This document shows, piece after piece, positions 1-48,371 of a stretch of DNA of 64,000 nucleotides. The stretch covers positions 13,578,001 to 13,642,000 of the forward strand of contig NC_086376.1 of the NCBI RefSeq assembly GCF_036588685.1, read 5' to 3'. Both the position numbers and the translations under genes were made by a program. The stretch is from Mytilus trossulus. Lineage: Eukaryota. Each line of letters begins with the position of its first letter. The stretch's first letter is position 1. The notes under the pieces were generated by a model. The model worked only from the letters and a program-made list of their open reading frames with translations. It was not told the DNA's origin and made no database searches.

Positions 1-738
1 GAACCTGGTTGTCAAAATATTTTTTTTTATATTAAAAAAAACTTTAACCTCACAACATATTTTAAATATGTTAGGATTCTAGTCTGTGGTTGTCTTATAT
101 GTCTAATCTTCATTTTGTGGTTATTTGGAGAATTTAGATTTGATGACAGATACTTGATATTTCCTGTTTAATGTATTCACATCTCAATTGAGTCAGACAC
201 ATTGTATTGAGACAATTTTTTGGATAAATGATTTGTTTTTTTTCGATTTTTTAACAAAAAAACCTGCATAAAAGCTTTATATTAAATGGAACACTTATAT
301 TTGTGGGTAACCCCAACCCACACAATAAGTATCCAACCAATAATGCTTAATTTAAAGTAATACATTCTACTTTACATTAACATATACTTTGTATGGATTG
401 CTTTTTTTCTTATAAAGAATTTTTGTTTTTGTAAGTGACATAGTGATCTGTTGTCGAGTGTTGACTAACAAAAACTATTTCTTGATCTTAAAAATATTTA
501 TTATATTCAATGAAGGTTTAACTAAGTTATTAATCTTCACAATCACAGACTGACGATTAATGTTGATGTAATTGATGATGGAATGTAGGATTGCCATGCC
601 TTTCTCTGCAATTTTCTGAAAACAAATAGAATTTAATCTGACACTCTATGCAAAAGGTGAAAAATGTGAAAAACCAGCCATACAATCTGAACCTACCAGT
701 ATATAATTACTGAAAAAAACTTTGTAACAATCCTTTAC

Positions 739-846
739 CTGCTTCTGTTTCCCCAAATCCACTGGCACAAACTGTACTCCAGCCTTTGTTCTTGTGATAT
801 ACTTCAACCATACCATTACTTCTATAGTTCCCTCTCATTAAACGCA
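739..846 (-). CDS. Exon 20, N-terminal third of SRCR17 (absent from ORF track)
   Basis: VRLMRGNYRSNGMVEVYHKNKGWSTVCASGFGETEA; tttgtag acceptor, G|GTAAAG donor. Confidence 0.82.
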
Positions 847-3800
847 CTACAAACAAACATACAACCTTTATTATATACATTAAACTGATTGAAAGTACTT
901 TTTATCTAACCATATACAAAAAGAGCAGTACAATGGCATTTTTTCTTACTTAATATTTTTTTTACTTCTTATCTGATACCCATGATAATTAAAATTTTAC
1001 CAAAAAAGTAGAGTTAAAAATAGTTTTCGTTTCATTCTATTCAGACTTGGTAGTTATGGTTGAGCAGTTAATATTGTCAGGTTGTATTGACTTCTGACCT
1101 TTTGAATTAACCTTGGAAAAGGGGTATTTTTGCATTTACAGTAAACAGAGTTAATATATAATTTTTAAGTAAAATGGAGAGTAGGAATGGCGAATGTGTC
1201 AAAGAGACAACAACCAAAGAGATGAACTAGATTATTAATTTTTCATATACATAAAATTATTGACTACCCTTTTATTCACCTGATTTGAAACAGACAACTC
1301 CAGCATCATTGCCATGTGTACATCTTTGTGTCTGAGCAGGATACCATGAAGCTTCACACTGTAGGAAGTTTGTCTCATTCCCCATACACTCCACCCTTGT
1401 CATCCAAATATCCTGATCATTAGTGCCTACTGTTGTAGGGTTAGTCTGAACTCCTCCTACAAAGGGACCTAACTGTCGACAGAAGACCTCAGCATCAACA
1501 TCATCCCAGTAAACATTACAAACAGTACCCCATCTACCATTTAAGTAAATCTCTGCTCTGCCACTTCCTTCATATTCCTCACCAATTCTAAACTGCACAC
1601 CCTCTGTAAACAACAATAAATTATATAATTAGACAACAGTTAGGCAACATCTTCTGTTCCAATGAGTGATTTTTAAAGTATTTAGGAATTATTATGCAGA
1701 ATGGTTCATTAATTAATTATATCATTTATCCATCACTGGCATCTTCTTATTTTGATTTTTTTGGCAAAGATAAGCCATTACAAAAGTGACAATAATAAAC
1801 ACGTCGAATTCATGTTAACAGCTGAGTTCAGCAAGTTTTCCATATAAATGATAGGTTTATGATGATATGAACAGTACCTGCTTTCTTTGAGCAAACAATA
1901 GCAGCCCTAGAAGATCTTTCATTACATTGATGGTCCTCTCTGAAGGTTGCCATGGGACACCCATGCAATGTCTTCTCTGTACCAGTACAATTAACATGCC
2001 CAAATAATGTAGGCACATGTCTGAGGACTGTTCCCCTGGTGGCATTACCACCAGCAAAACCTAATTCCCGACAGACTACTTGTGCATCATCATTATCCCA
2101 TCCTACATCACAGATTGATCCCCAGATTCCATATCGCTGCACCTCTACATTACCAAAGAATAATCCACTGGGCCTGGTAACATGGACAGCTGGAAAACAA
2201 AAATAAAATGATTAAAAACTTCACCACCTAGAAGAATGAGGTAATGGAAGTAATGTTTCCTCTTTTTCAATGTTAGAATTATGATAATTATATTTTTTAT
2301 TTATATGTTCTGTTCATTATTTTTTTCTTCCTCTGTAATGTTAATTTCTTTTTTTTTACTGGTGTTTTGTCCATCACTTTTTCAAGCAACTTACAGTGGA
2401 GTTGGACATGTTTATTTCTTAGCTTGCAAACACTGATGATAACATATCCTTTCAATCTCAGGAAACCAGAGTAAAAATATCTCATTTTATTTGCATGTTA
2501 ACTTAAACTTTGTACTTACAATATTTAGTAGCATCAGAATCTGTACAAGCCACAGACACATAATGTTTTGATGGACATGAATCCTCTTCATGTGGACAAT
2601 CATTGAACTTCTCTCTGCCAGTACACTGGACATTAGTAATTCCTATTGGACGAGAAGTCAGCCATGTTCCCTGAGCAGAACAACACTGGGCCCTGCCATC
2701 TGTATATCCCATTGACTGGCATGCCACCTTAGCATCAGTATCATTGAAGTTTTCATCACAAACAGAATACCAGGAATCTTTCTTAAATACCTGAAGTTGT
2801 CCATAGTTGGCCAGTCCAAGTCCAGACAATCTGACTGAAAAGGTTAAAATAAATTTGATAATTTCAACTATGAATATTTATACTATTCAATAAAAAAAAA
2901 TCTCCTATAAATTACATTAATAACTGTAATGTTATATTATGACTATAGGCGGCAACAAGATTCAAAACTTGATCCTTCAGTCTTAAAAAAGGGAAAACAT
3001 AAAAAAACAAAGCTATAAAAAGACACAGTGTTAATTTGATATCATTTTAATTGCCAATCAATATCATTCTAAGCATTTATGAAATCAATAGTTTTTATTG
3101 TTAAGTAGCTATAAATGCCTCTGGTGGAGTTGCTCATTTGCAATCAAACCACATCTCCTTATTTCTATAATGTTCATCCTTGACATTTGTACACATTTTA
3201 TTTTTATAATGTACATCTTTGACATTTGTACACATTTTATTTTTATAATGTACATCTTTGACATTTGTACACATTTTATTTTTATAATGTACATCTTTGA
3301 CATTTGAACATATTTTATTTTTATAATGTACATCTTTGACATACACATTTTATTTTAACATCCTTATTAACTTACCACTTGCATAACATTTAACCCCAAT
3401 ATCTTTCTCGTGTGCTGCACATGCTGTGTCTGGTTTCTCAGCAAGACCTACTAACTCACAGTCCAGTATACTGCTCTCATTACCGTGACAGTAGGCTCTA
3501 CTGATCCACACGGGACCAGTGGTGTTGCCATAGGAATGGTTGACAACATACACACCATACATAAATCCTCTCTGACGACATATCACTGTGGCAACCTTGT
3601 TTGTCATATACCATCCACATATACTTCCCCATGTGCCATTGATTTTGACCTCTACAAGACCTTCAGATTTGGACTTTCCACCAGTTATTCTCAACTCAAA
3701 GCCAGCAGTCTCTGTAAATACATATATGTCATGAACTATATGTCTAAACAATATACTTGATTTATAAGCAGGATTAGAATACAGCTGTAGAATAAAAATG

Positions 3801-6800
3801 GCAAGGTGTCTGCAGACAAAAATATTAAGAAAGGGTATTTGTGGAAATTTAAAGCATAAAGCTATGCTAATACAGTAGCATCAAAATCTATTTTCAATTT
3901 CTTAAAATATATATCTTCAAACATTATAAAATTACAAGAATATTCACAGAAGGAAAAAAATCTAATGGATTAGAAGATGTTAAAAAAACTGATAGGTTTT
4001 ATATCAATTATAGTTGAATAAGATAAAGTAGTTTTTACATATTTTGTACAATACCTTTAGTTTTATAACAGAATGCAGCAGCAGAACTACTGATAGAACA
4101 ATTATCTATCTGACCCCAGGCTAATGTTCCACACTTGTCTAAGTTACTCTCAGCTCCAGTACAATTCAGGTTGTTTAACCATCTGATATCATCAGTCCGT
4201 GATCGAGGTACATGTGGTAGTACATCATGGCGATATTTGTAACCAAATCCTCCCAGAAAGCCTTTCTGTCTACATGCAACCATAGCATCATTACTGTCGT
4301 AGCCATTTGTACAAACCAAACCCTCATGGTTATAGTAGTCTACCCATAGCTTGCCAAAAGTTCCATTCTCAAATCGGAGCTCAAACCCTGAAAGATATGT
4401 CATATCACAATAACAAATGAAAAAGGATTTCTACATTGTAGGGAAATATCCCTAGCTTATTATACGGTATGTGTCAAACTATAGAGTAGACTAGAGAAAA
4501 ATAGCTATGGTATACTTATTTCTTCCTCTTTCTGTGTTTAAGTAATGTTATCATCACTCTGATTATTATTAGTCAGTTGTTAAAAAAAAATTGGAGTTAT
4601 ATCCTAGATTCTATGTAAATTTAAAGTGAGTGTTGAGAAAATTGTCAAAAACATTTAATTTGGAGCTAAGGTAAATTGAAAGGTTTATATCTTATAAGGA
4701 TTATGGCATTTAGATGTGGCGGCCAGATTTTATGAGTGGAAGAGGTAGTATGAGTGTCCGTAGAAAATCATCGACCTTCCATCAGAAAGCTGAGTGGGGG
4801 TTCCAACTGACAACCTCAGTGTTGAATGGTTAGTGATCACAGTAGTAACTACTTAGACCACTCCGCCACAGAGTCAACAACTAAATATGGAAGCTATGTA
4901 TATTTATAATCCTAGAAGAGAAGTATTATTATATAATGATAATAGATGAAAATGGTTATGCTACAATTGTCCAAAATTGGAAAAAAAGTTCCACACATAA
5001 AACAAAATTTTCAATTCTGAATTGCCATATAATGTGGTCAATTATAGATAATGAAACACAATCTCACTAAGTGTGAGAGTTTTGGGGAATTCTCCAAGAA
5101 ATGATTAAGCTGACCTTTTTATGACCAATCAATCAGATTGTGACATGTGGGGCAGGATCTGTTTCCCCTTCTGGAGCAAGTACCTGAGATCAACCCCAGT
5201 TTTTGATGGGGTCTGTGTTGATTAGTTTTTCTTTTTCTATGTTGTGTTTTGTATACTGTTGTTTGTCTTTTTCTTTTTTAGCCATGGCATTGTCAGTTTA
5301 TTTTTCAATTTATGAGTTTGAATTTCCATATGGTATCTTTCGCCCGTCTTTTGTTCCTTCTTATATAAAGCAGTGAATCAGTGACTGGTACCTACCTTTA
5401 TGTGATGGTTCCTTGTCAGTACAGACAACTGAGGCATATTTTTTACTAGCACATCTCTGAAGTCCATCTATAGCTTTACAGTCATTCAGAGTAGGTTCAT
5501 TACCAAGACACTGTAGACCCGTTATTGATATTTGATAATCATGTGACCCAAATGCTGAGCAACATAGACTTTTCCCATAAGCATATCCCATATCTCGACA
5601 GGCTACCTTGGCATCATTGTCATCAAAGTTATCAGAACAGACCATTGTGTAGACCTTGTTCGACCAAATCTGGAGAGCACCATAATCATCTCCTGGACTG
5701 GTATTCACTAAAGGAAAACAGAAACAAATAACATTTATTAATATATTGTTGAGATTTTATCTTCTATAGTGAAGCAGAATAGTGCATACTATTCTACAAT
5801 TTAAAAATTTATAATTGTAGGTCTTAATAAACTTACATACATGACATAATTATACATCTCAAGTAATATTTAAAGTGTACTTAAAACTTTGAAAACACAA
5901 GTCATACAGACTCTTAATACATTTCCAATTTATTGTCAACATGGTCAAGTTAATAAACATTGTTGAAGGTTGTACAATGACTTATAGTTGAAAGTTTCTG
6001 TATCATTTGTTCTCTTGTGGAGAGTTGTCTCTTTGGCAATCATACCAAATCTTCTTTTTACATAATACAAAAATAACATAATAAATTCAATATAGTATTT
6101 AAAATATGGTAGCTCTAATTTAAGCATTGCTGAAAAAAACAAGTCAATCTTTGAATTCCACTATACCTCTTCTAGAACATGTGACTCCTGCATCAGTCAT
6201 ATGCTGAGTACAATAGGACTGGACATTACCCCATCCACGACTAGGACATTCCAGTAAACTAGACTCAGTACTGTCACAGAACATTCCAGATAGGTATACA
6301 TTTCCAGAGCCTGATCCATGATAAGAACCTTTGTAGGCAGTACCATCAGGGTACCCCAGCTGTTGACAGAGAACCCTGGCATCATACTTGCTCCAGTCGT
6401 AATCACATACTGTACCAGAAACTCCATCATAACTAATCTCTACTCTACCATAGTGTTTCTTTCCATCAACAAGCTTAATTTCTACACCTGAAATCAATGT
6501 ATTGAACATTAACACTTTCTGAAATTCTCTAATATTTACAAGTCTCTTACTACAGATTCATTATTATTTATTGAACACAAATTGTTGTGGATTCATGGGA
6601 ACAGGTTATCCATGAATTCAAATGTTCAAAGAAGAAAACATTTTCTTTAGGCTTTGTATGCAGAGATTGGTAAAACAAAGAAAATGAAATATCAACAAAA
6701 ATGCAAGTATTCCTCAATTCATGAACATTGGTAAACACAAAAATAAATTAATCGACAGTGTATGCTTAAGAAAGCCAAAATTTGTTTTGGCCTTCATTTG

Positions 6801-9800
6801 CAAAACATTTTTTTCAATATTTCATATCTATCATGTGCATTTTTAAGTTTCATAAAATGCAAAGCTTGAATATAATAAATCTAAAAAAAAAGTATATGGT
6901 TTTCTGCTCTAAATGTATTTGCTTCAAATCATCACTTACAACTTACTGGTTGTGTTTAAAATGAATTGTGATAATTTTAGGTGGTACGTAACACTACAGG
7001 GAGATAACTCTGTAAAATCAGCAGAACGTTTTAATTAGGTTGTGTTCATAAGGGAATATCAGGCTTCTCAATGATCAAAATAAGTGTTTGTCAAACTGTT
7101 ATATAACCAGTGTAATTTTTCAGATAAAACGGTTGTTTCAAATTTTTTGAAATTTTTATATTTTTGTCCAAGGGTCAAAGTAAATACTTTGTCAAAATTT
7201 AAAGAAAAATAAACGAGCCAAATTAATTTTAGTTAAAGTGTTAGGTACCACCTTAAAGACTTTTTTTTATATCTGATTCTTTTAATTTGTTTAAATAAAT
7301 TATTTCATTTCAATCTTAAATCCAAAAATATATTATTACATTTTGGAAATGTACACCTGTAGAATCTTGCACAGTTCTTACCTGTAGAATTGTAACACAG
7401 TACACCAGCATTCTTAATGGACCTTACACAGTCTAGTGATACATGTGGACTAGCATCACATTCTGCTGGAGAAGACTCTGTTCCGGTACAATTGAAATTT
7501 GTATACCAAACTGGCATTGACCTAGAATACACTTCTTGAGGGCCAAAGACCACACCCCCTTTATAACCAACCATGTGACAGAAAGCATTGGCATCCTTGT
7601 CATCCCAGCCTTCAGTACAGATTGTACCATTCATACCATACTGCTCCGCCAAAACAGAACCATGGTAACCATCTGATATATAAAACTTCTTCTCTGAAAT
7701 AGAAATTATTGAAATAATGTTTGAGTATAATGTTATAGTATATCATAGCACTAAATAAAAACACTGATAGTACTTTTTCCATTTAGCAAAATGCAATTCA
7801 AATATTATAAATTCTGAACTTTTATTGTGGATTTATTGCATTATTCAAACTTCAACTGCCATGAAAGTGATTTATGAAAAAAATAATGAACAATATTTCA
7901 TTAAAGGAGGCATGTACAAGAAGACCAAACATTTCATTAAAGAAGACCATACATTTGATTCATAAATACATAGTTTAATATTTTAATTGTAAATATCATT
8001 TACTGTTCCCTGAAGGAGTATTTAAAACAAAAGTGAATTTATTTGTGTACTGTAAGAATACAATTACAAGTTTTATCCAATACAATTGTATGTTTTTCGA
8101 CTAGAATTGTATGTTTTTTCAATGTTAGTTCGTGTATATGTTTAGGAGTTTAGTATGACGTCCATTTTCACTGAGCTAGTACACATTTTTTATTTAGGGG
8201 CAAGCTGAAGCCTATCAAAGGTTCTGGATTACCCGCTGTGTTGAAGACCCATTGGTGACCTTTGGCTGTGTGTTTTTTTAACTCTTTGGTGAGGTTGTTG
8301 TCTCTTTGACACATTTCCCAATTCCATTCTCTAATTAATAAAATACTTACCAGGTTCAAAGCCACTATTCTTTATACACAGTAGACTAGCATAGTTAACA
8401 GTAACAGAGTTACATTTAGTTGTCACCGTCATCTTACATTCATCTAAGGTCAACTCAGATCCTTTACAGTCCATATTATAAATAGTACCAAAGGATTTGA
8501 GGAATCCAAATGATCCAGGTCCCAGAATCCTAGCTTTATCAAAGCCTATATCTCGACAGACCACATCAGCACTAGCCTGGGTAAAGTTGGTGGCACAGAT
8601 ACTGTACCATTTGTTTTGATTTAGAACTTCTACTCTTCCCGTTATGTAACCTGCTCCTTTCTTACCCTCTAACAGTTTTACTAAATAAATAACAAAAAAT
8701 TAAAAAAATTGATAGCTGTACTTTGACATATAATTGTTAATTTTTATACATTGTGACTTGGATTGGGACTTTGGGAGTTGTCTGATTGGCACTCATACGA
8801 CATCTTTTTATTTATATTGTTTTGAAATAAGAAATATTATTGTATAGCAATATACAGTAATATTTCCCACAGCAAGCAACCAAAAGTTAGCGTGCAATAA
8901 ATTCCAATATTGCACTAGTGCAATAAATCTTCAAAAATTCATGACGTCATCAACGTCAAAATCTAGCTTAAACTAATTTTTACTTTAAATATTATATTGC
9001 TATACAATAAAAGGGTTATTGCATGAATATTGGGGAATATTGTCCCTCGTAGAACATATATTGCACTCGCAAGCTCGTGCAATATAAGATTCTACTCGGG
9101 ACAATATTCCCCAATATTCATGCAATAACCCTATATTACAAATCACTAAAATGTTATCACAGAAATTATTTGAATTAATATGATTTTAGGTCACTTGTTG
9201 AATTTTTTTCATATTTGAATTCTTCCATATTCATCAGCTATTCATTTTATTACATTTTAATTAAAATAACACGAAAAATGAAGAAAGTGCAAAAGACACA
9301 CTTTCACTAGTTAACTAAATTAATAAGGCAGATATACAAAATATTTTGAAACTAAAACTGTAAAAGCAACTACGCTATTCATAATTTTGGATGTGCCGTA
9401 TGTGAGAAATGATGCAGGTAAATCCAAACAGACTTTCTACAGAAAAAGGTTATACAGTATAAAGGGTTTCATGTGTAAAATAAACATTCCTCTTAGCTGA
9501 CATTTATATTTCTGTGGTTTATCTTGAATAGAATGATTCAGAAAGGCAAGGCAAAAGCAAAATCTTAAATTGTAATACCAAATGGCTAATGAAGAATATG
9601 GATTTTCTACATTGTTCCTATCCAATTTTTGTCAGCACTATTTTTCAAGTTTTGAAATATAAAAAAAAGAACTACATTTTGTACCTGGTATTACTTATAA
9701 TTGAGAAACATGTCAATCTTGGTTACTGTTATCATCTATCTTATAATTGAGGAGATTTTACGTATTTTCATAGTACAATGTAACTTTTATATCCTAACAG

Positions 9801-12800
9801 CATTCACTTTTCCCTTAATAAAAAAGAAAATCAAATGTATATTACCATTTTTCCAGCAATAGACCCCAACATGATCTTTACAATCTGGTATATTGAGAAC
9901 TCTATAGCCATAACTAGAACATCCCAATAGTGAGGTTTCAGTTCCAGTACACCAAATGTTAGACAGGAAAGCAGGCTCATTACCAGGCTTTACCCTAAAA
10001 CGTTAAGTTGACAATAATATTATTATGTTACTACAATAATTATCTACATATTAGATTTGACAAAAAATGACATTATAATCCAGTTATTATTAAAAAAAAA
10101 TCTTCTAAATTATTTCACTTTTCCCTAACATCCTTAGTTCTAAATATAAATTTCTTAAAGTAATTCCAGTGTCTTGTAGTTTTTGGTCATGGTGATTCCA
10201 ACAGTGAGAAGATGAACTATCATTGCTATACAATTTATTACTTGTCTTCATGACAAAAAGGTCAAGAAAATAACATCAAAGTTAGATTATCCTTAAACTT
10301 TAAATATTAAATGATGATATATATATGTGCTAAGTGTCTACAACATTTTACAATCTTCTTATATGTAACAAATATGTGTATAGTAATTCTATCATGCTTA
10401 TCACTAAAATAATTGGAAAACAAAAACATGTGATAAGACAGAATCTATAGGTTTAAGAATTGGAAGTCACTGAAACATGAAATTGGGGTCAGGGACAACA
10501 AAAAGATACCAGATGGGAATTCATTTTATTCACTTGTTGACTCTTTCAATTAGAGTTTTTGTCTCCTTTTACATGTTGCAAGATAAAACATAAATTACAA
10601 TATAAGAAAAAACAAAAAGTCTGACAGAATGAACACTTACGCCATAGGTTCTCCAGAATTATATCCCATACTCCTACAAACTACTGTAGCCTCTTGTTGA
10701 CCCCATTTATTGTCACAAACAGATCCTATTTCCTCGTCTATACGGATAATAACTCTACCGTAGTTATCACCTCCGTCTCTCAACAATGTATGAGGTGCTG
10801 AAATTGAAAAATGATAAATACATGTACTGACATAATACTTATACCATGTAAACAATGGTAAACTGGCTAACATGACTTTTTCATTTTGTAATTTCTCTAC
10901 CAGAAATCTAGAAAAACAAACCAACATGAAATTCCTATAACTGATTTTAAAGTACAATTCTTGTTTTCACAATATGTTAACAAGGTTTTTTCCATACTCT
11001 GTTTTTCTTTCTGTATCAAGTATCATTAGGACAAATCTGAGGATTTGATGATCACTAAAAATATTGTTATATCTCACACTTCTTCTTGCAGATAGATTTC
11101 TTTCAAAATAAATGTATTTCTTAAAAATATCTGCCAATTAATTTTCTTTTGAACCCATTTAAACATTTCTTTAGTATTTTACATGTTCTGTGATAAAAGC
11201 TAAGTTATTGAATTATCAATCCATATATCATATATATATATAGGATTCCTAAAAAAAACTCATCATTTATTGTTCTTTGATATTTTGTAGTAAAATAGTG
11301 ATCTGGCAATTGATATTAAATTAACCATAAAATTAATCATTCTTACCAAAACTATTATAACAAATGGCCCCTGCCACTGATGAACTATAACATACACCAG
11401 TATCTCCTTTACATTGGGAGAAATCACTTTCATTCCCAAAGCAATGGTACTCCGACACCAGTACAGGAACAGATGAAGGCTTGTGATAGACAGTAGCCAC
11501 CCCTCCTGCAAACTTCTTTGTCTTACACAGAACATTAGCTGCTTTGTCGTCCCAGAAGGAAGAACACACTTGACCCCATGTGTTGAAGGCTCTGACAGAA
11601 ACAACACCAAAACTGTGTACACCACCTTCTGATTCCGATCCTCCTATGTTGACCTTTACCACTAAAAATATAAATATAATAAGTTAAACGTACATATATA
11701 TTTTTTTTTAATTCTAAAATAACATTTCTTTATCGCCTGTTCAGATCTGTCAAATTTATTCAAATCCACGGTATGAAATCAAACATAAGTTGAAAAATGT
11801 TCATTATAAGATTTCATGTGCTTGGCGCTTTATTTACATTTATGTTTATATTGGTTTTATAAGCCACTGTCATTCTTTGGAGGTAATCTTGATGAATAAT
11901 TAATTAAATGTTGTCTTTTCTTAAATACACAAATAATGTTGATCTGTTCATTGTCTTTTTGTGTCGGGATGTATAAGTACCCGGCCACGTCCACTTTTAT
12001 TTTTGTCTATCTGCTGAGTTAAGCCTTTTTCAACTGATTTTTATAGTTCCTTCTTATGTTGTACTGTTATACCACTGTCCCAGGTTAGGGGAAGGGTTGG
12101 AAACCCGCTAACATTTTTAACCCCGCCACATTATTCATGTATGTGCCTGTCCAAAGTCAGGAGCCTATAATTCAGTGGTTGTCGTTTGTTTATATGTCAC
12201 ATATTTGTTTTTCGTTCATTTTTCTACATAAATAAGGCCGTTAGTTTTCTTGCTTGAATTGTTTTACATTGTCTTATCGGGGCCTTTTATAGCTGACTAT
12301 ATGCGGTATGGGCTTTGCTCATTGTTGAAGGCCGTATGGTGACCTATAATTGTTAATGTTTGTGTCATTTTGATCTTTTGTGGATAGTTGTCTCATTGGC
12401 AATCATACCACATCTTCTTTTTTATATCGATACATCCTAAAATATAAAGATTTCATCAACATTCTTTATATTGCTTACCTGTATCAGAACTTCCATTGAA
12501 ACAACTGACAGCTGCATATCCAAAATATTTGTTACTGCAAACTTTTTTTGTTTGGAATTGACATTTAAATATAGAATCTTCTGTTCCTTTACAGCTTATC
12601 TGTGTTAAAGGATACTTGTTGTATTTTCCAAAACTTCCCTGTGGCAACACTGTTCCGTTATTATAACCTAGCTCCTTACAAACAAGCCGTGACTCAAACA
12701 ATCCAAATCCACTCAGACAGATGTCAAACCAGCTTTGTTCAGAGGTGACAAAGATATTTACTACACCATTGTCAGGTCTTATGGACTGTAATAATCTGAC

Positions 12801-15800
12801 TGAAAGTAGTAAAGGCAGAGTAACAACTATACTAATCATTTTAACGTTATATTGTGTTTTAATGCATGGACAATTTTAAAAAAAATCAAAAAAAATCAAA
12901 TCAATCTGCAGAATCTGAATTGTTTCTTAATATAAAACAAAAAATGGTTGACATGAGAGTCTTGGAAATCAACTCTGTAAATATGGAAACTATTGCGTGC
13001 ATTTATTATTGCAATTTATGAAGACTGAACAAAAAATGTCAGAATAATTATTGCTTTTTCAGGAAAATTTTCATGCAAATAAATGTGTTTGATATTAGAT
13101 TGCAAGTTGTTGTTATGGCGATACACATCAAATCCCATTATTAGCATTAATAAAAATATTGCAATAATTTTGGAATTTACAATAGGTCATCAGAGAAAAA
13201 GAAAATAAGAAAAAAGAAAATGAACATTGCACATCAACCAGCAGCAGATGGCATTCATTTATTTCAATTGAAGGGTCAAAAGAGGTATAGCATTTTTACT
13301 TTACAAGTTATATGGTCAATTCCGTAATGAACAACATAATGTTGAGTGGCTGTTGTTTGTTGATGTGGTTCATACATGTAAGTGTTTCTTGTTTTTTTAT
13401 ATATACATGTAGATTAAACCGTTGGTTTTCCCATTCATACGATTTTACACCAGTCATTTTTATAGACCCTTAATAATTTGCTGTTTGGTGTGAGCCAAGG
13501 CTCTCTGTTGAAGACCACACTTTGACCTACAATGGTTAACTTTTACACATTGTAACTTGGATGGAGAGTTGTTTCATTGCCACTCATACCACATCTCCTT
13601 ACATCTAAAAACATACCATCTGTATAACACAATACTTCTACATCTCTTTTATGATTAGAACAATCATTGTCAGCCACACCCCATCCTGAATTGTTACACA
13701 TCAGGATGGATTTCTCTAATCCAGTACATATAACACCACTGAGGAAGATATTTCCTGTTCCACCGTTCCCTAAGTTTGTTGTTTCTCCGTCAGCAAAGCC
13801 CTTCTCTTTACACAGAACTTTAGAATTGGTCTTAGACCAGTATTTATTACAGACTGACCCTTTCTGTCCATCGTAAGTTATCTCTACACGTCCTGTCTGG
13901 CCACCTCCTACAATACTCATTCTAGGGGCTGAAATAACATAATGAATTATTTAAACATATTCATCAATAGAGATGTGTAATCTATAATACATTGTACATG
14001 TATATGACCCACTCTTTAAAAAAACTATGTCTTTCATTAAAAGTAGGCGCTAGTACATACAATTTTCACATTCCAATAATACTATACATATATTAACTAT
14101 CAATCAATTATGGGTCCTTTTGCTTAAATTTATTTATCAGTTCGATTCATTTTGCTTTGCTGCATGTGCACTAAACTACTTTCAATCATTCCTATATCAT
14201 GTATATGCTTGCTTTGTCTTCTTCACGAAATACATATTGAGATTAGAATCTTTGATGATAAACTTAACTTTACCACAGTGGCGGATCCAGAGGGGGGGTT
14301 CCGGGGGTCCGCACCCCCCCTTTATTTTGGCCGATCAATGCATTTGAATCGGGACATATGTTTGCACCCCCCTGCACCCCCCTTTGCCCTGGGCTAGCAC
14401 CCCCCCTTTCGAAAATACCTGCATCCGCCACTGTACCATGTTTACTTTCATGACTTAAGGTACATGTAAAAATAAAATAAAAACATTTTTTTTTGTAGAA
14501 ATTTGTTTTTTACCACAACAGGTATAGTAAATTTGTGTATAACTTGATGCCACTAGTTTTTAAAAGATATGTACATGTATGCAATAATCTATGAAACATT
14601 TGTAAATATATTCTAAGTAACTTTGAGGGTCTCAGTTTATGACATTTCCTTGTTGTGTTGAAGAGCTATTGGTGACCTTAAGCTGTTTTCTGCTGTTTGG
14701 GTTGTTGTCTCTTTGACATAGTCCCCATTTCCAATTCTCAATTTTATATATGTGTAATTCGCTATTAAAAATCTACAAACTGTGCAATTTTTCTACATGT
14801 ATATGACTGTCATTTGTGTATTCGTTCACCAAGCCTGAGGGAGTATAGAACCATTATAGATTATGAAATATGATCACATAACATAAATCAACATGATCAA
14901 TATGATATCTTAATTATTACAGGTTACTAGCACATATACATGTACATGTAATTATATGTAATAAAAGGGTAACGTCCATAAGATAATACATGTCATAGTT
15001 ATCATTTCAGGATTTCTTAGTTCAAGGTTCATCTGAGGGTCTCCATAAAAAAACAATACAGCAATTATTAATCGTGTGAAAGTATAATAAAAATTATATG
15101 TATTAGCAGTTATTACCATGATTGCAGTAATAAAACCTATCACATATCATGCATATACATGTACATCAAGAACATACATGTACATGAATTTTGTATAAAA
15201 TCAATTAAACCGTAGTTCCATGTATCTTCAATTAATTTACATTTTTATGTTCTTAGAGCCAATACAAAAAAAAAATCTTTTAGATGATTAAAAATGATTA
15301 AATTTCCAAATGGTCTTAGGACCAAAATTAAAAATATGTTCACCAAAGCACCTGGGCAAGCAGTGTTTAATAATTTTTGTCATTATACATTGTACATTTT
15401 TGTAAGTGATGAACCATTCTTTAAGTCTTTTGTTGGAGAAGATGGAACTAAGTTGAAAAACTTGTGTCTAATCCATTTGTTTTGTACAATAAAATATGTT
15501 TAAACTAAGTCGTTTGTTACCCATTATTGAAGACGGATAGCCAGGATAAAATCATTAATAAAACATGAATAACTAGTCTTAAATTCTGGTTCACTGTCCA
15601 AAGGAATCAGAAATAATGCTTAAATCTCACACTAAACAAAGACTAAATTTCCATGTAGCAATGTTTGCAGCACAGAAAAGAGTTAACTTGTTGTTATTTG
15701 TTAACAATAGGTTGCCCTCTTTCCGTTAAAAATTAATACAAAAAAACACTGTTTCTAACGACATGAATGCCCCACTTTAGCTTTGCAATTTTCCAAGTTA

Positions 15801-18800
15801 ACAAGGTCATTACTATAGAACAGTAAATGACTCACAATTTGAATTCAAACTCTGTCTGGCTGTTGTGGCTACAGCATTGTGCATGTTGTGTATTAGTTTC
15901 ATGACATATATGGATGGGACAAATTTATGTTAAATTGTGGAACTTAAATGGGACAAACAGACAGAGGGTGAAGGGTAACAAGGCAACAGACACATACACT
16001 TTGTCATGTTTGTATTGATAACATAACATAAATGGATGTCAGTAGCCTCATTTTAAAAAGATAAAATCAAATTATTTTACTGGTTTCAGGCAAATACTTT
16101 TAAAAATACTTTTATGTATATTCATACTCAATGATACTATTCGATTCCTGATTTAATATTGAACTTATGTGACATGCACTCAATGTAATCCTACACCATT
16201 CAATGTTCTAGCTTGTATGCACATGTAAACCTGTTGCCATTGGCAGTTTAAGACCATAATAGACCACAAACTAGGATGTACCGGGTAAGTACAAATGATG
16301 TACAAGGTTTATCAACTAGTTTAACATTAGTCACATCATCACATGACAGTATTAATTACTAGTGAGACAGGAACTGTTTCAATAACTCCAATTTTGTAAA
16401 ACATTTTGTTGGTCGTCTAACTTTTTTGTGAAGTGTATTATTAACAACTGTTTCTTTTTCAATAGGCTTTTTACTTCAGTTAATTATAATTTCAGCTAAA
16501 ATTGTAATCTTGATTGGTCCCTTTGGTCATGTTGGCTGTGTTTTATATGGTATATTCATCAATTTCCTTGTGTCTTTTATTTAGTTCAATTCAACATACA
16601 AACAAAATCTATCATATAATGTTGATCATCAAGATATTCCTACAAGATCATAAGCTAAAGCAATAATAGGTACAAACCTTCCTTTTTATAACACAGCACA
16701 GAGACAGCAGGACACCAGAAAACAGGATGAAACCAAGAAGAACTTTTACAGTCGAAAAGAGATGTTTCCTTTCCTGTGCACTTCAAACCACTGACCCAGG
16801 CAACTTTATCTGGTTGATGTTTGGTACCAAATACTACTCCACCAATGAATCCTTTACTCCGACAAACTACTGAGGCTTCAACATTGGACCATTCATAAGA
16901 GCAGGCATGACCCCACACGCCAAGGTGTTTTACTTCAACACGACCCCATGCATCCCCACCATCTACAATTCTTACATCAAAATCTGAAATACAGTGTGTA
17001 TTATGTATATTTTCATACAAACCACAAAGCAAAACATAAAAAGACTATATAATAAGTTAAGTAATCTATACATGCTATATAAATAGAAACAGTTTTTTTT
17101 AACTTATTTGTTAATTGATAGCACTTGAAAAATACATTAATGACTTCTGTAAATTCATACGTCTACAATTATCTCCAAAAAGGTGATGAATAATCTTAAC
17201 AATTTTACTATTCAGATCTTTGTGATGAAAATGAAATGTTTTCAGTTGATATGGAAGTCTGCCATGAAAATTGAACTTGTTATCAGGACAGAGAACATGG
17301 AGAAGGTTTCACCTTTGAAAGTGTTCATAATTAAAAGGACTGAGTAATAGCTTTACATGTATGTCAATCTTATTTTGATTATTTACATATATCTTTAAAC
17401 CATTTAACCATTATGCTTATTTTTGGAGACAACTTACTCATGTCAATATTACTTAATGATGTTTCATAGCACACAGCTCCAGCTAAACTTCCTTCAACAC
17501 AGCTCTGCCAATAATAGTCGGAGAAAGAGCAATTCAACAACCTACTCTCTTTTCCTGAGCAATTAAATTTGTAGAAGGCATCAGAAAATCCCAGAGACAT
17601 TCCAATAGATCCTCTGGTTGCATTTGTTATTGCTTTACCAGAGACATAACCCAGTTCTCGACAAACGACGCCTGCATCAATATCGTTCCATCTGTGATGA
17701 CACACCTCTGACCAACCCTTTGGTCCACTAACTTCCACCAGCCCAACATTTGGTTGATTTTTGGCATAGCGCAACTGTGCTATCAGTAAAATAATAGAAA
17801 AAAAGAAAATAATAATACATTGTACATGTTTTAAATACATGTATAACAAAAATCTGTCCCCAGTACACAGACCCCCATTTGCACTATCATTTTTTATGTT
17901 CAGTGGACTGTGAAAATTGGAGAAAATCTCTGATTTGGCATTAAAATTAGAAAGATCATATCATAAGTAACATGTGTACTAAGTTTAAACAGTTTAGATT
18001 CCTACCAATATAAAAAAGAAGATGTAGTATGATTGCCAATGAGACAACTATCCACAAAAGACCAAACTGACACAGACATTAACAACTATACATTGTAGGT
18101 CACGGTACAGCCTTCAACAATGAGCAAAGCCCATACTACGTAGTCAGCTTTAAAAGGCCCTGATAAGACAATGTAAAAAAATGTACACTTATTTACTGGC
18201 AATTTGAATAATAACAATTTTATATTGTCTCCAGATACACTGATTCCTGACACTAAGCAGAGTTGTTGCCAAGGAGACCAATAAGTGATTTTATGTTAAT
18301 TTCATTTGTACAACCAGGGATGGATCAAGATATTTTTAAAAGGGGATGGATGAAACCTCTCAACCATATGTCCCTATTTAAGAGAATTGATCTACATGTA
18401 TGGTTTTACAGACAAGACTTTTAATAAAAATGTATTTATCTGTCTATTTCTATTTTATAGCATGCTCAGGAGTAATTTCATCTGTTATTCATTTTCATAA
18501 ATCAGGCATTGCATCAGTAGTCATCATGGTCATACCTAAATGTCTACGTCAGGCATCAGTAACTGAGTAAGCAGACTAACAAAATTAACATTAATAGTTA
18601 CAAAGAGAGAAAAGTGAAAGATAAAAATAAGGGGCATCACACACACACAACCATTGACAACTGTTATCTGGAATAGTGTACTGCTGGTTTTGATCATGGA
18701 GGCAGCCAAGGAAAGGCCTCATGCTTATAAGAGCAAGAGTCATTATACACTCAAGAACTGAAGAGTATGACTCTGTATTGAAAGAAGGATAGTAGGAACA

Positions 18801-21800
18801 CTTAACGAAATTTAAAAAATATTTGTATACATATATAGTTAAGAAAAAAGGTCCATTCACATATATACATGTAAGTGCATTTGGTAGTCCTTTAAATCTA
18901 GTCCGAGATTACTCTGACGTCCAAAGGCTGTTTGGCCAGACAAGCTGGGGCCGTGAGATCAGAGCTTGTCCCATATCAAAAAGTGGATATTTGCCCACCC
19001 AAAATAGATGCGCTAATTTGTTGCTTCTGGAGCCGACTGAGGGCCTTGGAATTATATATAAATCGGGCATCAATCTCTTCTTTTTCTCATTTATCTCTTC
19101 ATTTATGTAAGTTTCACCTACCTGCCAACCTTTATTTTTCTATATTTTAACAGTTTTCACAGAGACCCGTCGATTTAAACATTTTGACTTTCACTTTCAA
19201 AGTTTATCACGTGACCACGAGAAAACAGTGCAAATGACCAAAATGTAACACCTCGTTCATTTACGATGCAAGTTAACTAAATGTCCGAGAGCTTCCGATT
19301 GCTATCGTGGTCGGAACTAAATGCTAATTACCAATCTCCTGTAAAGGGGGTAAAAAAACGTGGTTGCTTCTAAATGTTAATCATTGATAACCTCGTCGGA
19401 CGTCAGAGTAATCTCGGACTATTTAAATCTTACTATCATGGCTATAGCCTATACTCTAGGGGTAATGTCATGCTCATTGTTGAAAAATGTACAGTGACCT
19501 TTATGTTCTAACATTTATGTCATTCAGTCTCTTGTGCATAGATTTATCATAGGCGTAACATAAAAATAAAGTGAATACAGTTTTGTGAATTTTCACACTT
19601 ACAATTCAATTTTTATACGTGACTTCTCACTTTTCTTCATGTTTGTCAATTTTAAAGAACAATTTGTCCTACAATTTTCTTTTCCGAGGAACAACATGCC
19701 AATTAATCAGTTATGTGCAAATTCAATCTTAAAAATAGCTTTAAATTTTCCGCCCTGAGATTTGTTTTTTACCGGAAGTAAACAAAACAAATAAAATAGG
19801 GAAACGGTATCCGTTTTATTCCGGAATTGTAGCAAATCAAGTTTAACTTGAAAAAGTCCCATTTCCAATCGACAACAAAAACATATCGAAAAGCAAGAAA
19901 ATATGATTTTAGCGTGACGTCGATCAATATTTGTAATCATTAACTTTATAGTGGTTTTTTTTATAATTTGAAATGTTTAAAGTTTTAGTATTTATGGATT
20001 AGGAGAGTACTGGGAGACGATATGAGAGACAATCCTTATGAATAATATAAATCAAATGAATATACAAATATATGTATCAGCAAAAGACATATCAAGCGAA
20101 AGTCGCAAAAAAACCCAACAAACAACCAAAAGACAGCGTTCTAGACCTTGTAACAGGTGTGCATGCAAGCTGTCACCATATGCAAATACCAAAAACAAGA
20201 ACGATCTTTAAAAAAGATATATCCGACCAGAGACATATATACACCTGTGTATATATGTCTCTGATCCGACGTATTTAAATTTGAGTATTATGTTTAAAAC
20301 TATCATTTCGATAACCTTCAGAAGCACAATGACTAAATGATGTAGGACCTCTTTAAAATCTCCATCTGCATGTAACTACAAGAAATTATTAAGTCTGGTT
20401 ATATTAAGGCAATAATATATAAGAATATTGTGATGATACCTAAAAGTTTATTTGTCAAAAAATCCAGTGCAAATAAAAAGAAACAAATATACATTTACTA
20501 CTGTTTACATTAAACTTAATTCATGGTTAACAAAGCTAGAAACTATTGGTAGTATAAGTAGTATCTTTCTGTTTACATTCACCCAAAACCCCGCGGAAAT
20601 CTTACATGCGTAGGTGCGTTCCCAAAGGTACAACAAAGTTTACATTAAAAATTATATATTTGTCCCGAATAAACAGCTGTCATGGATGCAAAGAGGTATT
20701 GGAGAAACAATTATTTTAATAAAAATATAAATCTTTGTAAGATCTAGTTCAAATATTTATAGTTTTTCACTTGCTTTCCATCACGATATAATTTTCGATA
20801 CGTTTTTTCAAACACAACCAAATCACCCACCGTGACAGCTTTTTGTCCAATCACAGAAAGGATTTTCGAGCGTATTCTGTTGCCATAGTGAAGCGTCTTT
20901 AAGTTCAAAGGGCACAAACCGAAACTATACCGACTACGTCGGAAAAAGACCGCGGACCACAAAGGAAGCCGCCGTGTGATTTGACTATAAAAGACAACCA
21001 AGCGATTCTGAATTTTGACCTAAACACAAACCAACATCAAATTAACGCCAATGATAAGATATACTCTTCGTTTCAAATCCCGAAAGGCTTGAAAATACTG
21101 TAGAACAGACTGTTGATTTTACAACAATATTCGAACATTTTATTAACTAAATGAATACCTACAAGTAACGTTGAAACAGGAGACGCCAGCATCTTCCTGG
21201 TGGTTGCAGTTGTGTACTCCCCAAGGATTGGTCAGACATTCGTCCAGCGATGTCTCATGTCCTTTACAAATAACTTCATCTAAATAGATCTGACCTTTGC
21301 CTTGACCAAAATGGGCTAATGAATGCCCTATCTGAAAATATCACAAACAAATATATCTATAATACTAAAATTACGAGGTCCAATTTGTCAGCTGTCATCA
21401 CGTAAAAACGACGAATCAAAGAATTCAACTTTATATATAACTAATATAGTACAAAGGTATAGATTAAAAATTACACCACTCCAGGCCCTTTTGTTTTCCA
21501 CGTAATTTGTATTGCCAATAATTAAGAAGTTCCGGGTCGATTCCGATACCGATACCAATAGTATATTTACCTGTTACCTATTACCTTATCTGTACGTTCC
21601 GCATCTGACAGGCGCACCACCAAACGGTGTATTCAGGATTAATATGCTATATACACGGGTCATAATCACAGGGTAACGTTGACACTACTGAATTGTCAAA
21701 TTGTTACCTATTGTAGTGTTTTAATCAGTAAGACTTTCTAAGATAACAATACGAATACTAAAAATCTGTACTGAAAATAAGGCGCATAGGTACGGGTTTC

Positions 21801-24800: not shown

Positions 24801-27800
24801 ATCGTAAGAATACATTGTAAACATCAGTTGTGATGTATATACCCTCCCCATAGATTGAGAAAGTGGTGTAACCCTACATCGTAAGAATACAGTGTAAACA
24901 TCAGTTATGATGTATATACCCTCCCCATAGATTGAGAAAGTGGTGTAACCCCACATCGTAAGAATACAGTGTAAACATCAGTTATGATGTATATACCCTC
25001 CCCATAGATTGAGAAAGTGGTGTAACCCTACATCGTAAGAATACAGTGTAAACATCAGTTATGATGTATATACCCTCCCCATAGATTGAGAAAGTGGTGT
25101 AACCCCACATCGTACGAATAAAGTGTAAACTTCAGTTATGATGTATATACCCTCCCCATAGATTGATGTATATACCCTCCCCATAGATTGAGAAAGTGGT
25201 GTAACCCCACATCGTAAGAATACAGTGTAAACATCAGTTATGATGTATATACCCTCCCCATAGATTGAGAAAGTGGTGTAACCCCACATTTGTTTGTGAA
25301 TGATGTATATACCCTCCCCATAGATTGAGAAAGTGGTGTAACCCCACATCGTAAGAATACAGTGTAAACATCAGTTATGATGTATATACCCTCCCCATAG
25401 ATTGAGAAAGTGGTGTAACCCCACATTTGTTTGTGAATGATGTATATACCCTCCCCATGGATTGAGAAAGTGGTGTAACCCCATATCGTACGAATAAAGT
25501 GTAAACTTCAGTTATGATGTATATACCCTCCCCATAGATTGAGAAAGTGGTGTAACCCCACATCGTAAGAATACAGTGTAAACATCAGTTATGATGTATA
25601 TACCCTCCCCATAGATTGAGAAAGTGGTGTAACCCCACATTTGTTTGTGAATGATGTATATACCCTCCCCATAGAGTGAGAAAGTGATGTAACCCCACAT
25701 CGTAAGAATACAGTGTAAACATCAGTTATGATGTATATACCCTCCCCATAGGTTGAGAAAGTGGTGTAACCCCACATCGTAAGAATACAGTGTAAACATC
25801 AGTTATGATGTATATACCCTCCCCATAGATTGAGAAAGTGGTGTAACCCCACATCGTAAGAATACAGTGTAAACATCAGTTATGATGTATATACCCTCCC
25901 CATAGATTGAGAAAGTGGCGTAACCCCACATCGTAAGAATACAGTGTAAACATCAGTTATGATGTATATACCCTCCCCATAGATTGAGAAAGTGGTGTAA
26001 CCCCACATCGTAAGAATACAGTGTAAACATCAGTTATGATGTATATACCCTCCCCATAGATTGAGAAAGTGGTGTAACCCCACATCGTAAGAATACAGTG
26101 TAAACATCAGTTATATGATGTATATACCCTCCCCATAGATTGAGAAAGTGGCGTAACCCCACATCGTAAGAATACAGTGTAAACATCAGTTATGATGTAT
26201 ATACCCTCCCCATAGATTGAGAAAGTGGTGTAACCCCACATCGTAAGAATACAGTGTAAACATCAGTTATATGATGTATATACCCTCCCCATAGATTGAG
26301 AAAGTGGCGTAACCCCACATCGTAAGAATACAGTGTAAACATCAGTTATGATGTATATACCCTCCCCATAGATTGAGAAAGTGGTGTAACCCCACATCGT
26401 AAGAATACAGTGTAAACATCAGTTATGATGTATATACCCTCCCCATAGATTGAGAAAGTGGTGTAACCCCACATCGTAAGAATACAGTGTAAACATCAGT
26501 TATGATGTATATACCCTCCCCATAGATTGAGAAAGTGGTGTAACCCCACATCGTAAGAATACAGTGTAAACATCAGTTATGATGTATATACCCTCCCCAT
26601 AGATTGAGAAAGTGGTGTAACCCCACATCGTAAGAATACAGTGTAAACATCAGTTATGATGTATATACCCTCCCCATAGATTGAGAAAGTGGTGTAACCC
26701 CACATCGTAAGAATACAGTGTAAACATCAGTTATATGATGTATATACCCTCCCCATAGATTGAGAAAGTGGTGTAACCCCACATCGTAAGAATAAAGTGT
26801 AAACATCAGTTATGATGTATATACCCTCCCCATAGATTGAGAAAGTGGTGTAACCCCACATCGTAAGAATACAGTGTAAACATCAGTTATGATGTATATA
26901 CCCTCCCCATAGATTGAGAAAGTGGTGTAACCCCACATCGTAAGAATAAAGTGTAAATATCAGTTAAATGGGCTTAATTGATTAACAGATCTGTGCTAAG
27001 AGATCTACTTTATAACAAGAACACAAAATACACCAAGTATCTAGGATTATCTATGTAAGTTAATCAGAATGATAGTTGTATGTGTGAGTGTATCAAGTGG
27101 GAGAGAAAGGCTTTTTATTTTTACTTTGTGTGATTAAAGGCTTGTTATGAGCCCTATGATTAGGAAATAAAATATCTTTATCTTACTATGTAAGGGAACT
27201 CACAGTTACTGAAAGCGAGTTCAAAGCCTAATGTCAACGAACAAATAAAGCTTGTTTTCCAGGACTTGCATATCAACGGATATAGTATAACATAAATAAA
27301 AGAATGCTTAATAATTTTGTTTATGTTTTTGTGTATTTTCATTTAACCGTTTCTAAGCATTAAAAGTCTTCTTTTAGATGTTCGTGGTGGTTGCACTAAA
27401 TGTAAATCCAAGCTGTCGATATTCGATGGTAGCTGTTGATAAAGAGTATAATGGAACATTTGGGATACACTATATACCATCATAGATGTAATAGTTGGGT
27501 ATTACATATATGATACCATGTATACTTACACCCCATGTAAATCCAAGCTGTCGACATACAACTGTAGCAGCATCATTATCCCAGAAGTCATCACAGATTG
27601 TTCCCCAATTAGCTTTATCTTTGGAAATTTCTACTCTCCCTGAACTCGTCGTTTTTCCATCTTTTAACCGTACATAAAATGCTAAAATAGAAAAATACAC
27701 ATGTGTTTGTTTTGGAGTTTAGTTAGACGTCCATTTTTACTGAACAAGTACTATTCTTTATTATGTGGGCAGCTTGGAAACCCATTGGTGGTCTTTGGCT

Positions 27801-47460: not shown

Positions 47461-48371
47461 TTAAAATGACTATATTTATATTCCCAAGTCACTTTGGGGA
47501 CTAACTGAACATTGATATAAAATATATATATAATACAATGGTACGTACAACTGTCACATTTGTAAACATACATTGAGAAAAAAGGATATGTAAAAAAAAC
47601 TATACATCGAAAGATGTACTATACCTACATGGACTATTGATACAGTAGCACTTTGATTTTTTTCTAATGAAGATATTATTCACCTCTTCAGAATGAAAAT
47701 ACACAGAACAGCCATAATTAGAGGATACTGTGAGAATTGAAAATAAAAAATGAAACAAAATACAATACTACAGAATACGGCTACCCTAACAGAGGAAACG
47801 AAAGTGGAATTCTTCGAGACATTAATGGTAAACTCTTTTAAATAAGAATTCACAATGCGAGGTGTTGTAAATATTGTAATAAGCTATCGACATTCTGAAC
47901 GCCTGCTTATATAAATTGGTTATCGCTACTACCATTGCACGCTAATATTAAGAGAACACGATATACATCATAGCATAGAAATATTTATTTTTGGGTATAT
48001 CTTACCTCTTAGGCTTGATGTTATTTTATTTGAAACAGTATTTCATCAAAGGAAATGTTATGGATGGAGAAAGAACTTTAAGAACAAACACCAGATTGGA
48101 CCTAATGACTCAAGCCTAAAACACTACTTTAACAGAAGATATAAAGATAAACATGGAAATTACACTGTATCAAGGGTCTTCTTACAAGCTGCAGACCCAA
48201 ATTTGAAATTGGATTGTCTGAAAGAGGGACAAAAGATACCAGAGGGACAGTCAAACTCATAAAACGAAAATAAACTGACAACGTCATGGCTAAAAATGAA
48301 AAGGACAAACAATAGTACACATGACACAACATAGAAAACTAAAGAAATTCCACCACCTCTGACTGGATGGA

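What the first reader, a model, noticed from the sequence alone, without database searches (positions are those of the whole stretch)
739..27681. SRCR domains form a hidden 3-domain super-repeat (X-Y-Z)5-X-Y
Seen: domains 1,4,7,10,13,16 are canonical (mostly C...W, G.G..[WYF]L, [HD]..D.GV.C) and join the next domain with almost no linker. Domains 5,8,11,14,17 have F instead of W after the first Cys; 5,8,11,14 also show a GSFG/CSAFG-type loop, a Y[AV][AS]..C end and a longer linker, and domain 2 fits only partly (GSIG, long linker). Domains 3,6,9,12,15 share [FY].GG after the second Cys. Inference: the gene grew by old duplications of a three-exon cassette, and the triplet may be the folding or ligand-binding unit. 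This differs from the near-identical single repeats of vertebrate DMBT1.
Basis: partly seen in the sequence, partly recalled or inferred. Interest (0 to 1): 0.75.

Follow-up and report, generated by a model that had tools for sequence, protein, structure and literature searches.

The report
Ancient three-domain-repeat SRCR receptor
This bivalve gene encodes a chain of scavenger-receptor (SRCR) domains of three alternating kinds, an order shared with snails, a lamp shell and a ribbon worm; the repeated part has lost the usual calcium-binding residues and is predicted to form a stiff stalk that likely carries the ligand-binding domains at its ends.

Summary
The period-3 pattern is real: 17 SRCR domains on the minus strand, same-phase domains more alike than chance (p=0.0002), diagonal at about 319 aa. 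Public contigs join the modelled exons. The window holds only the front of the gene. Full-length relatives in a limpet and a nemertean read signal peptide, canonical domain, (Y-Z-X)8, canonical domain, stalk, membrane helix, tail; a freshwater mussel has the same 26 positions, and a brachiopod keeps the order. So the triplet duplications predate the split of these phyla. The idea of a closed folding or binding triplet is not supported: AlphaFold2 places seven domains confidently across triplet borders (pTM 0.74; no control array folded). The canonical Ca2+ ligand triad survives in 6 of 280 family domains against 54 of 70 controls, and in the window only in domain 1. Best reading: a continuous, semi-rigid three-interface SRCR stalk with binding heads at its ends, on a likely endocytic receptor. 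Multi-domain SRCR cassettes are known (WC1/CD163). I found no description of this family in six literature searches. New variant of a known kind; ligand unknown.

The parts
43276..43372 (-). Likely first coding exon (signal peptide, 32 codons, phase-1 donor matching the D1 acceptor)
   Evidence: Only candidate in a scan of the minus strand upstream of 27681; its splice to D1 was not tested with reads
27530..27681 (-). SRCR D1, first exon (canonical head domain; only window domain with the full Ca2+ ligand triad)
21163..21331 (-). SRCR D1, second exon
17438..17779 (-). SRCR D2 (Y, divergent)
16678..16983 (-). SRCR D3 (Z)
   Evidence: a 306-nt gap of matching size in contig X2 record 12
13617..13928 (-). 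SRCR D4 (X)
12479..12799 (-). SRCR D5 (Y)
11347..11661 (-). SRCR D6 (Z)
10641..10797 (-). SRCR D7 (X), first exon
   Evidence: the two D7 exons sum to the 306-nt gap in X2 record 12
9846..9994 (-). SRCR D7 (X), second exon
8351..8680 (-). SRCR D8 (Y)
7382..7693 (-). SRCR D9 (Z)
6167..6487 (-). SRCR D10 (X)
5396..5707 (-). SRCR D11 (Y, vicinal Cys-Cys, 8 Cys)
4055..4387 (-). SRCR D12 (Z)
3376..3711 (-). SRCR D13 (X)
2520..2834 (-). SRCR D14 (Y, vicinal Cys-Cys, 8 Cys)
1878..2189 (-). SRCR D15 (Z)
1280..1603 (-). SRCR D16 (X)
739..846 (-). SRCR D17 (Y), first exon only; gene continues past the left edge of the window
   Evidence: contig X1 record 1 carries 913 more letters beyond the D16 end; homologues have 22-26 domains

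Best explanation
The window holds the first 17 domains of an SRCR array built from three alternating domain kinds, likely part of a 26-domain type I membrane receptor whose middle 24 domains are predicted to pack into one continuous, semi-rigid stalk that would hold calcium-binding domains at its ends. Steps. (1) Shown: three subtypes in the cyclic order X>Y>Z, with position-specific orthology across molluscs and a nemertean, so the triplet was duplicated and the copies had diverged before these phyla split. (2) Shown: each junction type has its own linker length, and the middle domains lack the acidic triad that binds Ca2+ and ligands in SALSA/DMBT1. (3) Predicted: the three junctions are three fixed interfaces, so gain or loss of one or two domains would break the packing, which would explain why the order persists. 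(4) Inferred from homologues: membrane helix and NPxY tail, so likely ligand capture by the canonical end domain(s) followed by endocytosis, working like CD163. The ligand is not known; a polyanionic microbial or dietary ligand is the most likely class by analogy.
For: Order: 240 of 257 neighbour pairs follow x>y>z>x when classes come from an unsupervised tree of 312 domains; 489 of 554 in 35 proteins by class profiles, plus 18 head/tail junctions. Tree labelled by position only (102 rows): 6 label changes against a shuffled mean of 55.9; Y one clade (SH-aLRT 88); cross-phylum clades for positions 1, 3, 18, 20, 22 and 24. Architecture: Patella P0130 and Tubulanus P0263 read C(YZX)8C; Potamilus P0267 has 26 domains with position 2 scoring as Z by profile but grouping with Y in the tree; Pinctada P0010 matches the window domain for domain. 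Linkers from last Cys to next first-strand Leu: X>Y exactly 5 in 48 of 61, Y>Z 11-15, Z>X 9-12. Ligand triad (mapped from PMC7043408): 4 of 77 X, 2 of 103 Y, 0 of 100 Z against 54 of 70 control domains; only D1 in the window, only D1 and D26 in Tubulanus. AlphaFold2: X-Y-Z-X pTM 0.78; Y-Z-X-Y-Z-X-Y pTM 0.74, pLDDT 90, where a lone rigid triplet would give about 0.48-0.57 by my block model. The arrangement fits no solved multi-SRCR chain (rmsd 10-34 A), so it is not a copied template. In three scallops Y11 has lost one Cys of its Cys-Cys pair and Z12 has gained one, which suggests a Y-Z contact. NPxY in 15 of 23 homologue tails.
Against: No control SRCR array was folded, no coordinates or PAE were available, and the alignments were shallow (24 and 30 rows), so the pTM reading rests on my own rough block model. 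A linker as short as X>Y also occurs in an ordinary non-periodic array (P0042). The scallop cysteine swap is one evolutionary event. The 23 and 35 proteins were chosen because they showed the pattern, so the transition counts measure regularity within the family, not how common it is. A shorter paralogue lacks the canonical head (starts at Y5, ends at X19 or Y20) and persists, so middle domains probably bind something too. The site-1-like acidic pair is kept in 57 of 100 Z domains. Patella P0130 D26 lacks the triad. The window's own C-terminus, membrane helix and tail lie outside the window. 8 of 23 tails lack NPxY. No ligand or tissue data.
Confidence: 0.58

Rival explanations
1. Closed triplet modules: each three-domain unit folds as a compact pseudo-trimer with a composite, non-canonical binding site, and eight such units give avidity or breadth.
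For: Several short forms contain whole Y-Z-X units: scallops (YZX)5, Mytilus P0123 (YZX)2. A near-identical three-domain duplication sits in Lingula P0125 (97, 98 and 88% over the three domains; may be an assembly artefact). Class-specific surface motifs exist: Cys-Cys only in Y (54 of 110, against 0 of 94 X and 0 of 108 Z) and a W-D-D-x-D acidic patch in Z.
Against: pTM 0.74 over seven domains exceeds what a closed triplet gives. The Y-Z-X border would fall on the shortest, most invariant linker. Nine homologues end after Y and two start at Z. Patella's recent period-3 copies cover Y and Z only (97 and 79%; flanking X under 45%).
Confidence: 0.2
2. Historical relic: an early triplet duplication left a phylogenetic echo; domains now fold and act independently as beads on a string, and the order persists only because rearrangements are rare.
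For: Duplication of several domains at a time is the usual way repeats grow (PMC1553488, passages). Other SRCR arrays in the hit list show periods of 2, 3, 4 or 5. Within-class identity is low.
Against: 26 positions kept in a limpet, a freshwater mussel and a nemertean; junction-specific linker lengths; class-specific residues kept; high multi-domain pTM.
Confidence: 0.17
3. Structural or adhesive role: the array is a surface or mucus scaffold (cell adhesion, particle sorting, shell or mucus matrix) rather than an endocytic scavenger.
For: Ser/Thr-rich stalks of up to 275 aa in some homologues. SRCR-repeat proteins occur in limpet adhesive mucus, though with a different architecture (PMC7333891, passages).
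Against: Membrane helix in 23 of 24 examined homologues and NPxY in 15 of 23. This rival is compatible with the rigid stalk and differs only in the last step.
Confidence: 0.12

Closest known systems
CD163 / WC1 / CD163c-alpha (vertebrate group B SRCR receptors)
   Same: Type I membrane proteins with an ectodomain of SRCR domains only. WC1 has a repeated multi-domain cassette, a-b-c-d-e-d-b-c-d-e-d' (PMC2906472, passages). CD163 is a calcium-dependent, multimerising endocytic receptor (search listing and abstract starts). Top Foldseek hits.
   Different: Six-cysteine domains here, lacking the group B pair; period 3 repeated eight times instead of five domains twice; predicted domain arrangement does not superpose on CD163 (rmsd 13-34 A); found only in lophotrochozoans.
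DMBT1 / SALSA / gp340
   Same: Long tandem SRCR array; databases name many homologues DMBT1-like; D1 keeps the SALSA cation-site residues.
   Different: No near-identical repeats, no long interspersed linkers, no CUB or ZP domain in the homologues' Pfam lists, membrane-anchored, ligand triad lost from the inner domains. DMBT1's own architecture is recalled, not from a call.
Invertebrate poly-SRCR expansions (sponge, sea urchin)
   Same: Single-exon SRCR domains and growth by domain duplication; one- and two-domain replication units reported in sponge (PMC10855680, passages).
   Different: Those are lineage-specific and variable. This array has three old subtypes and a count kept across phyla. 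The passages seen mention no three-domain unit.
Titin and nebulin super-repeats
   Same: Higher-order repeat of diverged domains in fixed order, tied to a scaffold or ruler role (search listing only; the ruler role is partly recalled).
   Different: Intracellular, different folds, periodicity matched to a filament partner; no periodic partner is known here.

Membership tests
SRCR superfamily, group A | Match to the SRCR domain profile and fold | tested here: met
   14 of 14 single-exon domains above the PF00530 cut-off; single domains of the Pinctada model align with MARCO, SCARA5 and SCARA1 at Z 15.7-16.4, rmsd 1.6-2.0 A over 97-103 residues
SRCR superfamily, group A | Six conserved cysteines, without the group B C1-C4 pair | tested here: met
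   14 of 16 complete domains have 6 Cys; D11 and D14 have 8 through an extra adjacent Cys-Cys. Group definitions from PMC2906472 and PMC7043408 passages
SRCR superfamily, group A | Acidic cation site used for ligand binding (SALSA site 2) | tested here: not met
   Present in D1 only, absent in 15 of 16 window domains; 6 of 280 family domains against 54 of 70 controls. Residue mapping inferred from the paper's numbering and the control columns
DMBT1/SALSA | Group B eight-cysteine, near-identical repeats | tested here: not met
   6 Cys; pairwise identity 19-43% among complete domains
DMBT1/SALSA | C-terminal CUB and ZP domains, secreted (feature recalled) | tested here: not met
   Tested on homologues only: SRCR-only Pfam lists and a membrane helix after the last domain in 23 of 24; the window's own C-terminus is outside the window
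CD163/WC1 | Group B domains in a b-c-d-e-d cassette | tested here: not met
   Period 5 not significant, period 3 significant; 6 Cys
CD163/WC1 | Type I membrane topology with an endocytic tail | tested here: inconclusive
   Signal-peptide exon candidate in the window; helix in 23 of 24 and NPxY in 15 of 23 homologues; not visible for this gene
CD163/WC1 | Calcium-dependent multimerisation and ligand uptake | not testable with these tools
   Needs biochemistry

The most novel reading that the evidence does not exclude
SRCR domains have been co-opted as the building blocks of a solenoid or zigzag rod with three domains per repeat: a fixed-length extracellular ruler of eight repeats, kept since the common ancestor of molluscs, nemerteans and brachiopods, that sets the distance between a calcium-binding head and the membrane. 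It would be a quaternary arrangement of SRCR domains unlike any solved one.
Probability: 0.4. Interest if true: 0.7.

Novelty: new variant of a known kind. Interest (0 to 1): 0.52.

Why it matters
Invertebrate poly-SRCR genes are usually treated as fast-changing, lineage-specific arrays and annotated as DMBT1-like. This one is an old, orthologous receptor with a conserved count and order of domains across at least two phyla, and a conserved order in a third. It splits labour visibly: canonical binding residues at the ends, three derived domain kinds in between. If the stalk is rigid, it shows SRCR domains used structurally and gives a direct test of why multi-domain repeats keep their period (delete one, two or three domains). 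It also gives mollusc immunology and feeding biology a defined conserved receptor, in place of a misleading DMBT1 label.

Tried and rejected
No whole genome is held, so exons 17b onward could not be read. BLASTP self-comparison returned only the main diagonal; the diagonal was measured with three-domain global alignments instead. BLASTN self-comparison of 700-18000 gave 44 hits, 0 between exons: no recent duplication at DNA level. Two genes in the window (break before D5, where the short paralogue starts): rejected, since one contig spans D2-D9. Complex prediction of X13-Y14-Z15 with X16 gave no verdict; the alignment was not used; not counted either way. No sequencing run is on record as RNA (no RNA holder listed); the contigs laid are intron-free across the joints, but depth and tissue cannot be read. 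The third named-homologue search did not run (query too long), so no full-length Mytilus-type long paralogue over 2550 aa was sought there. The profile search of representatives failed on size and ran with a single protein. The window-only tree did not resolve X from Z. Literature searches found no description of this triplet family; the library lacks most subscription journals, and no supplements were read (those of PMC10855680 list SRCR genes of Lingula and Crassostrea and may include members). Earlier scan findings: none. No covariation analysis was run (too few independent sequences).
Full report
OBSERVATION. Six-frame translation and a profile built from the window's own segments found 19 SRCR-coding exons on the minus strand between 27681 and 739. 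Spliced at GT-AG sites they give an open frame of 1741 aa: 16 complete domains and the start of a 17th. All inter-domain introns are phase 1. D1 and D7 carry an extra internal intron, and D17 is cut by one. A single candidate signal-peptide exon with a matching phase-1 donor lies at 43372-43276. Contigs of public runs (coded X1, X2, X3, X12; guessed to be RNA) run straight across the modelled exon ends, to within the 1-2 bases that fit on both sides of a joint. One 3400-nt contig spans D2-D9, others D11-D13 and D14-D16 (table 8; most rows were not shown). No genome is held.

The period is real. Among the 16 complete domains, mean alignment score peaks at offsets 3, 6, 9 and 12, and 0 of 5000 shuffles reached the period-3 contrast; periods 2, 4 and 5 were not significant. 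Three-domain windows peak at about 319 aa and its multiples. The signal is old and weak: 27-34% identity within class, 25-29% between, same-class best hit for 12 of 17, no exon-exon DNA similarity (0 of 44 BLASTN hits).

WHAT IT IS. Searches with exon D11 and with a freshwater-mussel hit returned 124 proteins. I took 23 whose domains hit the window's Y and Z domains in order: bivalves, gastropods, one unnamed record and one whose cluster is Lingula anatina. Pinctada P0010 matches the window domain for domain (48-67% at D13-D16). An unsupervised tree of 312 domains (those of at least 88 aa and 6 Cys) fell into three groups of 110, 108 and 94, and 240 of 257 neighbour pairs followed x>y>z>x. A search of cluster representatives added 11 of 134 new proteins passing my order filter, one of them doubtful; they include Patella, Lottia, Lymnaea and the nemertean Tubulanus. 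Patella P0130 and Tubulanus P0263 read signal peptide, canonical domain, (Y-Z-X)8, canonical domain, Ser/Thr stalk, membrane helix, tail; Potamilus P0267 also has 26 domains. The Pinctada model stops at the start of a 23rd domain, so it is probably truncated. A tree of 102 domains labelled by position alone needed 6 label changes against 55.9 for shuffles. Y is one clade (88); X, the end domains and outside canonical domains stand apart from Y plus Z (97, with one X misplaced); positions 1, 3, 18, 20, 22 and 24 group across limpet, mussel and nemertean (quick method, few columns, most forks open). So the array was assembled before these phyla split, which by recalled dates is Cambrian or earlier.

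ANATOMY. X is the least derived class. Y has Phe for Trp after the first Cys, Tyr for Asp before the last strand, a short last loop and often an adjacent Cys-Cys (54 of 110 Y, 0 of 202 X and Z); 5 of the 5 single-exon Y domains also hit Pfam SRCR_2, 2 above its cut-off. Z keeps a W/F-D-D-x-D acidic patch and a G-G-V-A strand. Linkers are junction-specific: 5 residues in 48 of 61 X>Y joints, 11-15 for Y>Z, 9-12 for Z>X. A non-periodic Mytilus array has equally short joints, so shortness alone is not special. SALSA binds ligands through cations held by D1019, D1020 and E1086, and mutating them abolishes binding (PMC7043408, passages). Mapped by cysteine spacing, this triad is in 54 of 70 control domains but 4 of 77 X, 2 of 103 Y and 0 of 100 Z (32 of the 312 dropped for irregular spacing). 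In the window it is only in D1; in Tubulanus only in D1 and D26; Patella P0130 has a near-canonical D1 and no site in D26. 23 of 24 homologues examined have a membrane helix and 15 of 23 an NPxY in the tail (its role in endocytosis is recalled).

STRUCTURE. AlphaFold2 on homologue stretches gave pTM 0.78 for X13-Y14-Z15-X16 of Pinctada (24 rows) and 0.74 for seven domains Y8-Y14 of a scallop (30 rows). By a simple block model, a lone rigid triplet in seven domains gives 0.48-0.57 and about five ordered domains are needed. The prediction is therefore a chain ordered across triplet borders, not hinged triplets. Single domains match known SRCR structures (Z 15-16), but the multi-domain arrangement fits none of CD163, CD6, LOXL2, Pit54 or CD5L (rmsd 10-34 A). 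Limits: no coordinates or PAE, no control array, shallow alignments; whether the chain is a coil or a zigzag is unknown. Independent hint: in three scallops Y11 has one Cys in place of Cys-Cys and Z12 has gained one, suggesting a new Y-Z disulfide; this is one event, and a few isolated odd-Cys domains occur elsewhere.

MECHANISM. Shown: three subtypes, fixed order, conserved count in three full-length relatives, junction-specific linkers, loss of the canonical site inside the array. Predicted: three fixed interfaces forming a continuous stalk. Inferred: canonical end domains bind polyanionic ligands through Ca2+, and the tail drives uptake. Against a purely passive stalk: the short paralogue has no canonical head, and Z keeps an acidic patch, so inner domains may bind too. 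Rivals are closed triplets (0.2), a historical relic (0.17) and a non-endocytic structural role (0.12).

COMPARISON AND NOVELTY. It is a group A SRCR protein. It works most like CD163 but is not a member of the CD163/WC1 or DMBT1 families: cysteine pattern, period and C-terminus all fail. Multi-domain duplication is the common mode of repeat growth (PMC1553488, passages), WC1 has a five-domain cassette (PMC2906472, passages), sponges show one- and two-domain units (PMC10855680, passages), and other arrays in my hit list show periods 2-5. A super-repeat alone is thus ordinary. What is unusual is its age, its three diverged subtypes, the conserved count and the confinement of the ligand site to the ends. 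Six searches found no description; subscription journals and supplements were not seen. CD163 structure papers and titin/nebulin papers were seen as search listings only; PMC7333891 as passages.

VERDICT. Observation confirmed; interpretation partly supported; new variant of a known kind; interest 0.52.

Noticed in passing
   Followed up: no
window 59197-62216 (+): LINE-type retrotransposon: endonuclease ORF then reverse transcriptase ORF in different frames.
   Followed up: partly
window 47915-48259 and 48499-48903 (+): Two stop-free frames of 115 and 135 aa with no Pfam hit; the second resembles a decayed exonuclease domain (recalled likeness, untested).
   Followed up: partly
window 3159-3356: 39-bp tandem repeat, 5 copies, in the intron between D13 and D14.
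   Followed up: no
P0001, P0002, P0004 domains 7 and 8: Scallop Y11 has a single Cys where relatives have Cys-Cys, and the next domain has gained a Cys: possible inter-domain disulfide.
   Followed up: partly
P0001, P0002, P0004, P0005, P0009, P0011, P0020, P0028, P0074 (position 16): In the short paralogue the domain at position 16 has only 4 Cys, having lost one disulfide pair.
   Followed up: no
P0125 domains 8-13; P0127 domains 11-15 and 3-8 vs 19-24: Near-identical internal duplications: a Z-X-Y triplet in Lingula, a period-3 Y-Z copy and a six-domain block in Patella; real or assembly artefacts.
   Followed up: partly
P0059, P0069, P0102 (period 4); P0013 (5); P0044, P0056, P0076 (3); P0094, P0108, P0119 (2): Other SRCR arrays among the hits show their own super-repeats, judged from score peaks by offset.
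   Followed up: no
cytoplasmic tails of 11 of 23 homologues: A conserved D-G-S-x(3-4)-N-x-L motif upstream of the NPxY position, in both long and short forms.
   Followed up: no
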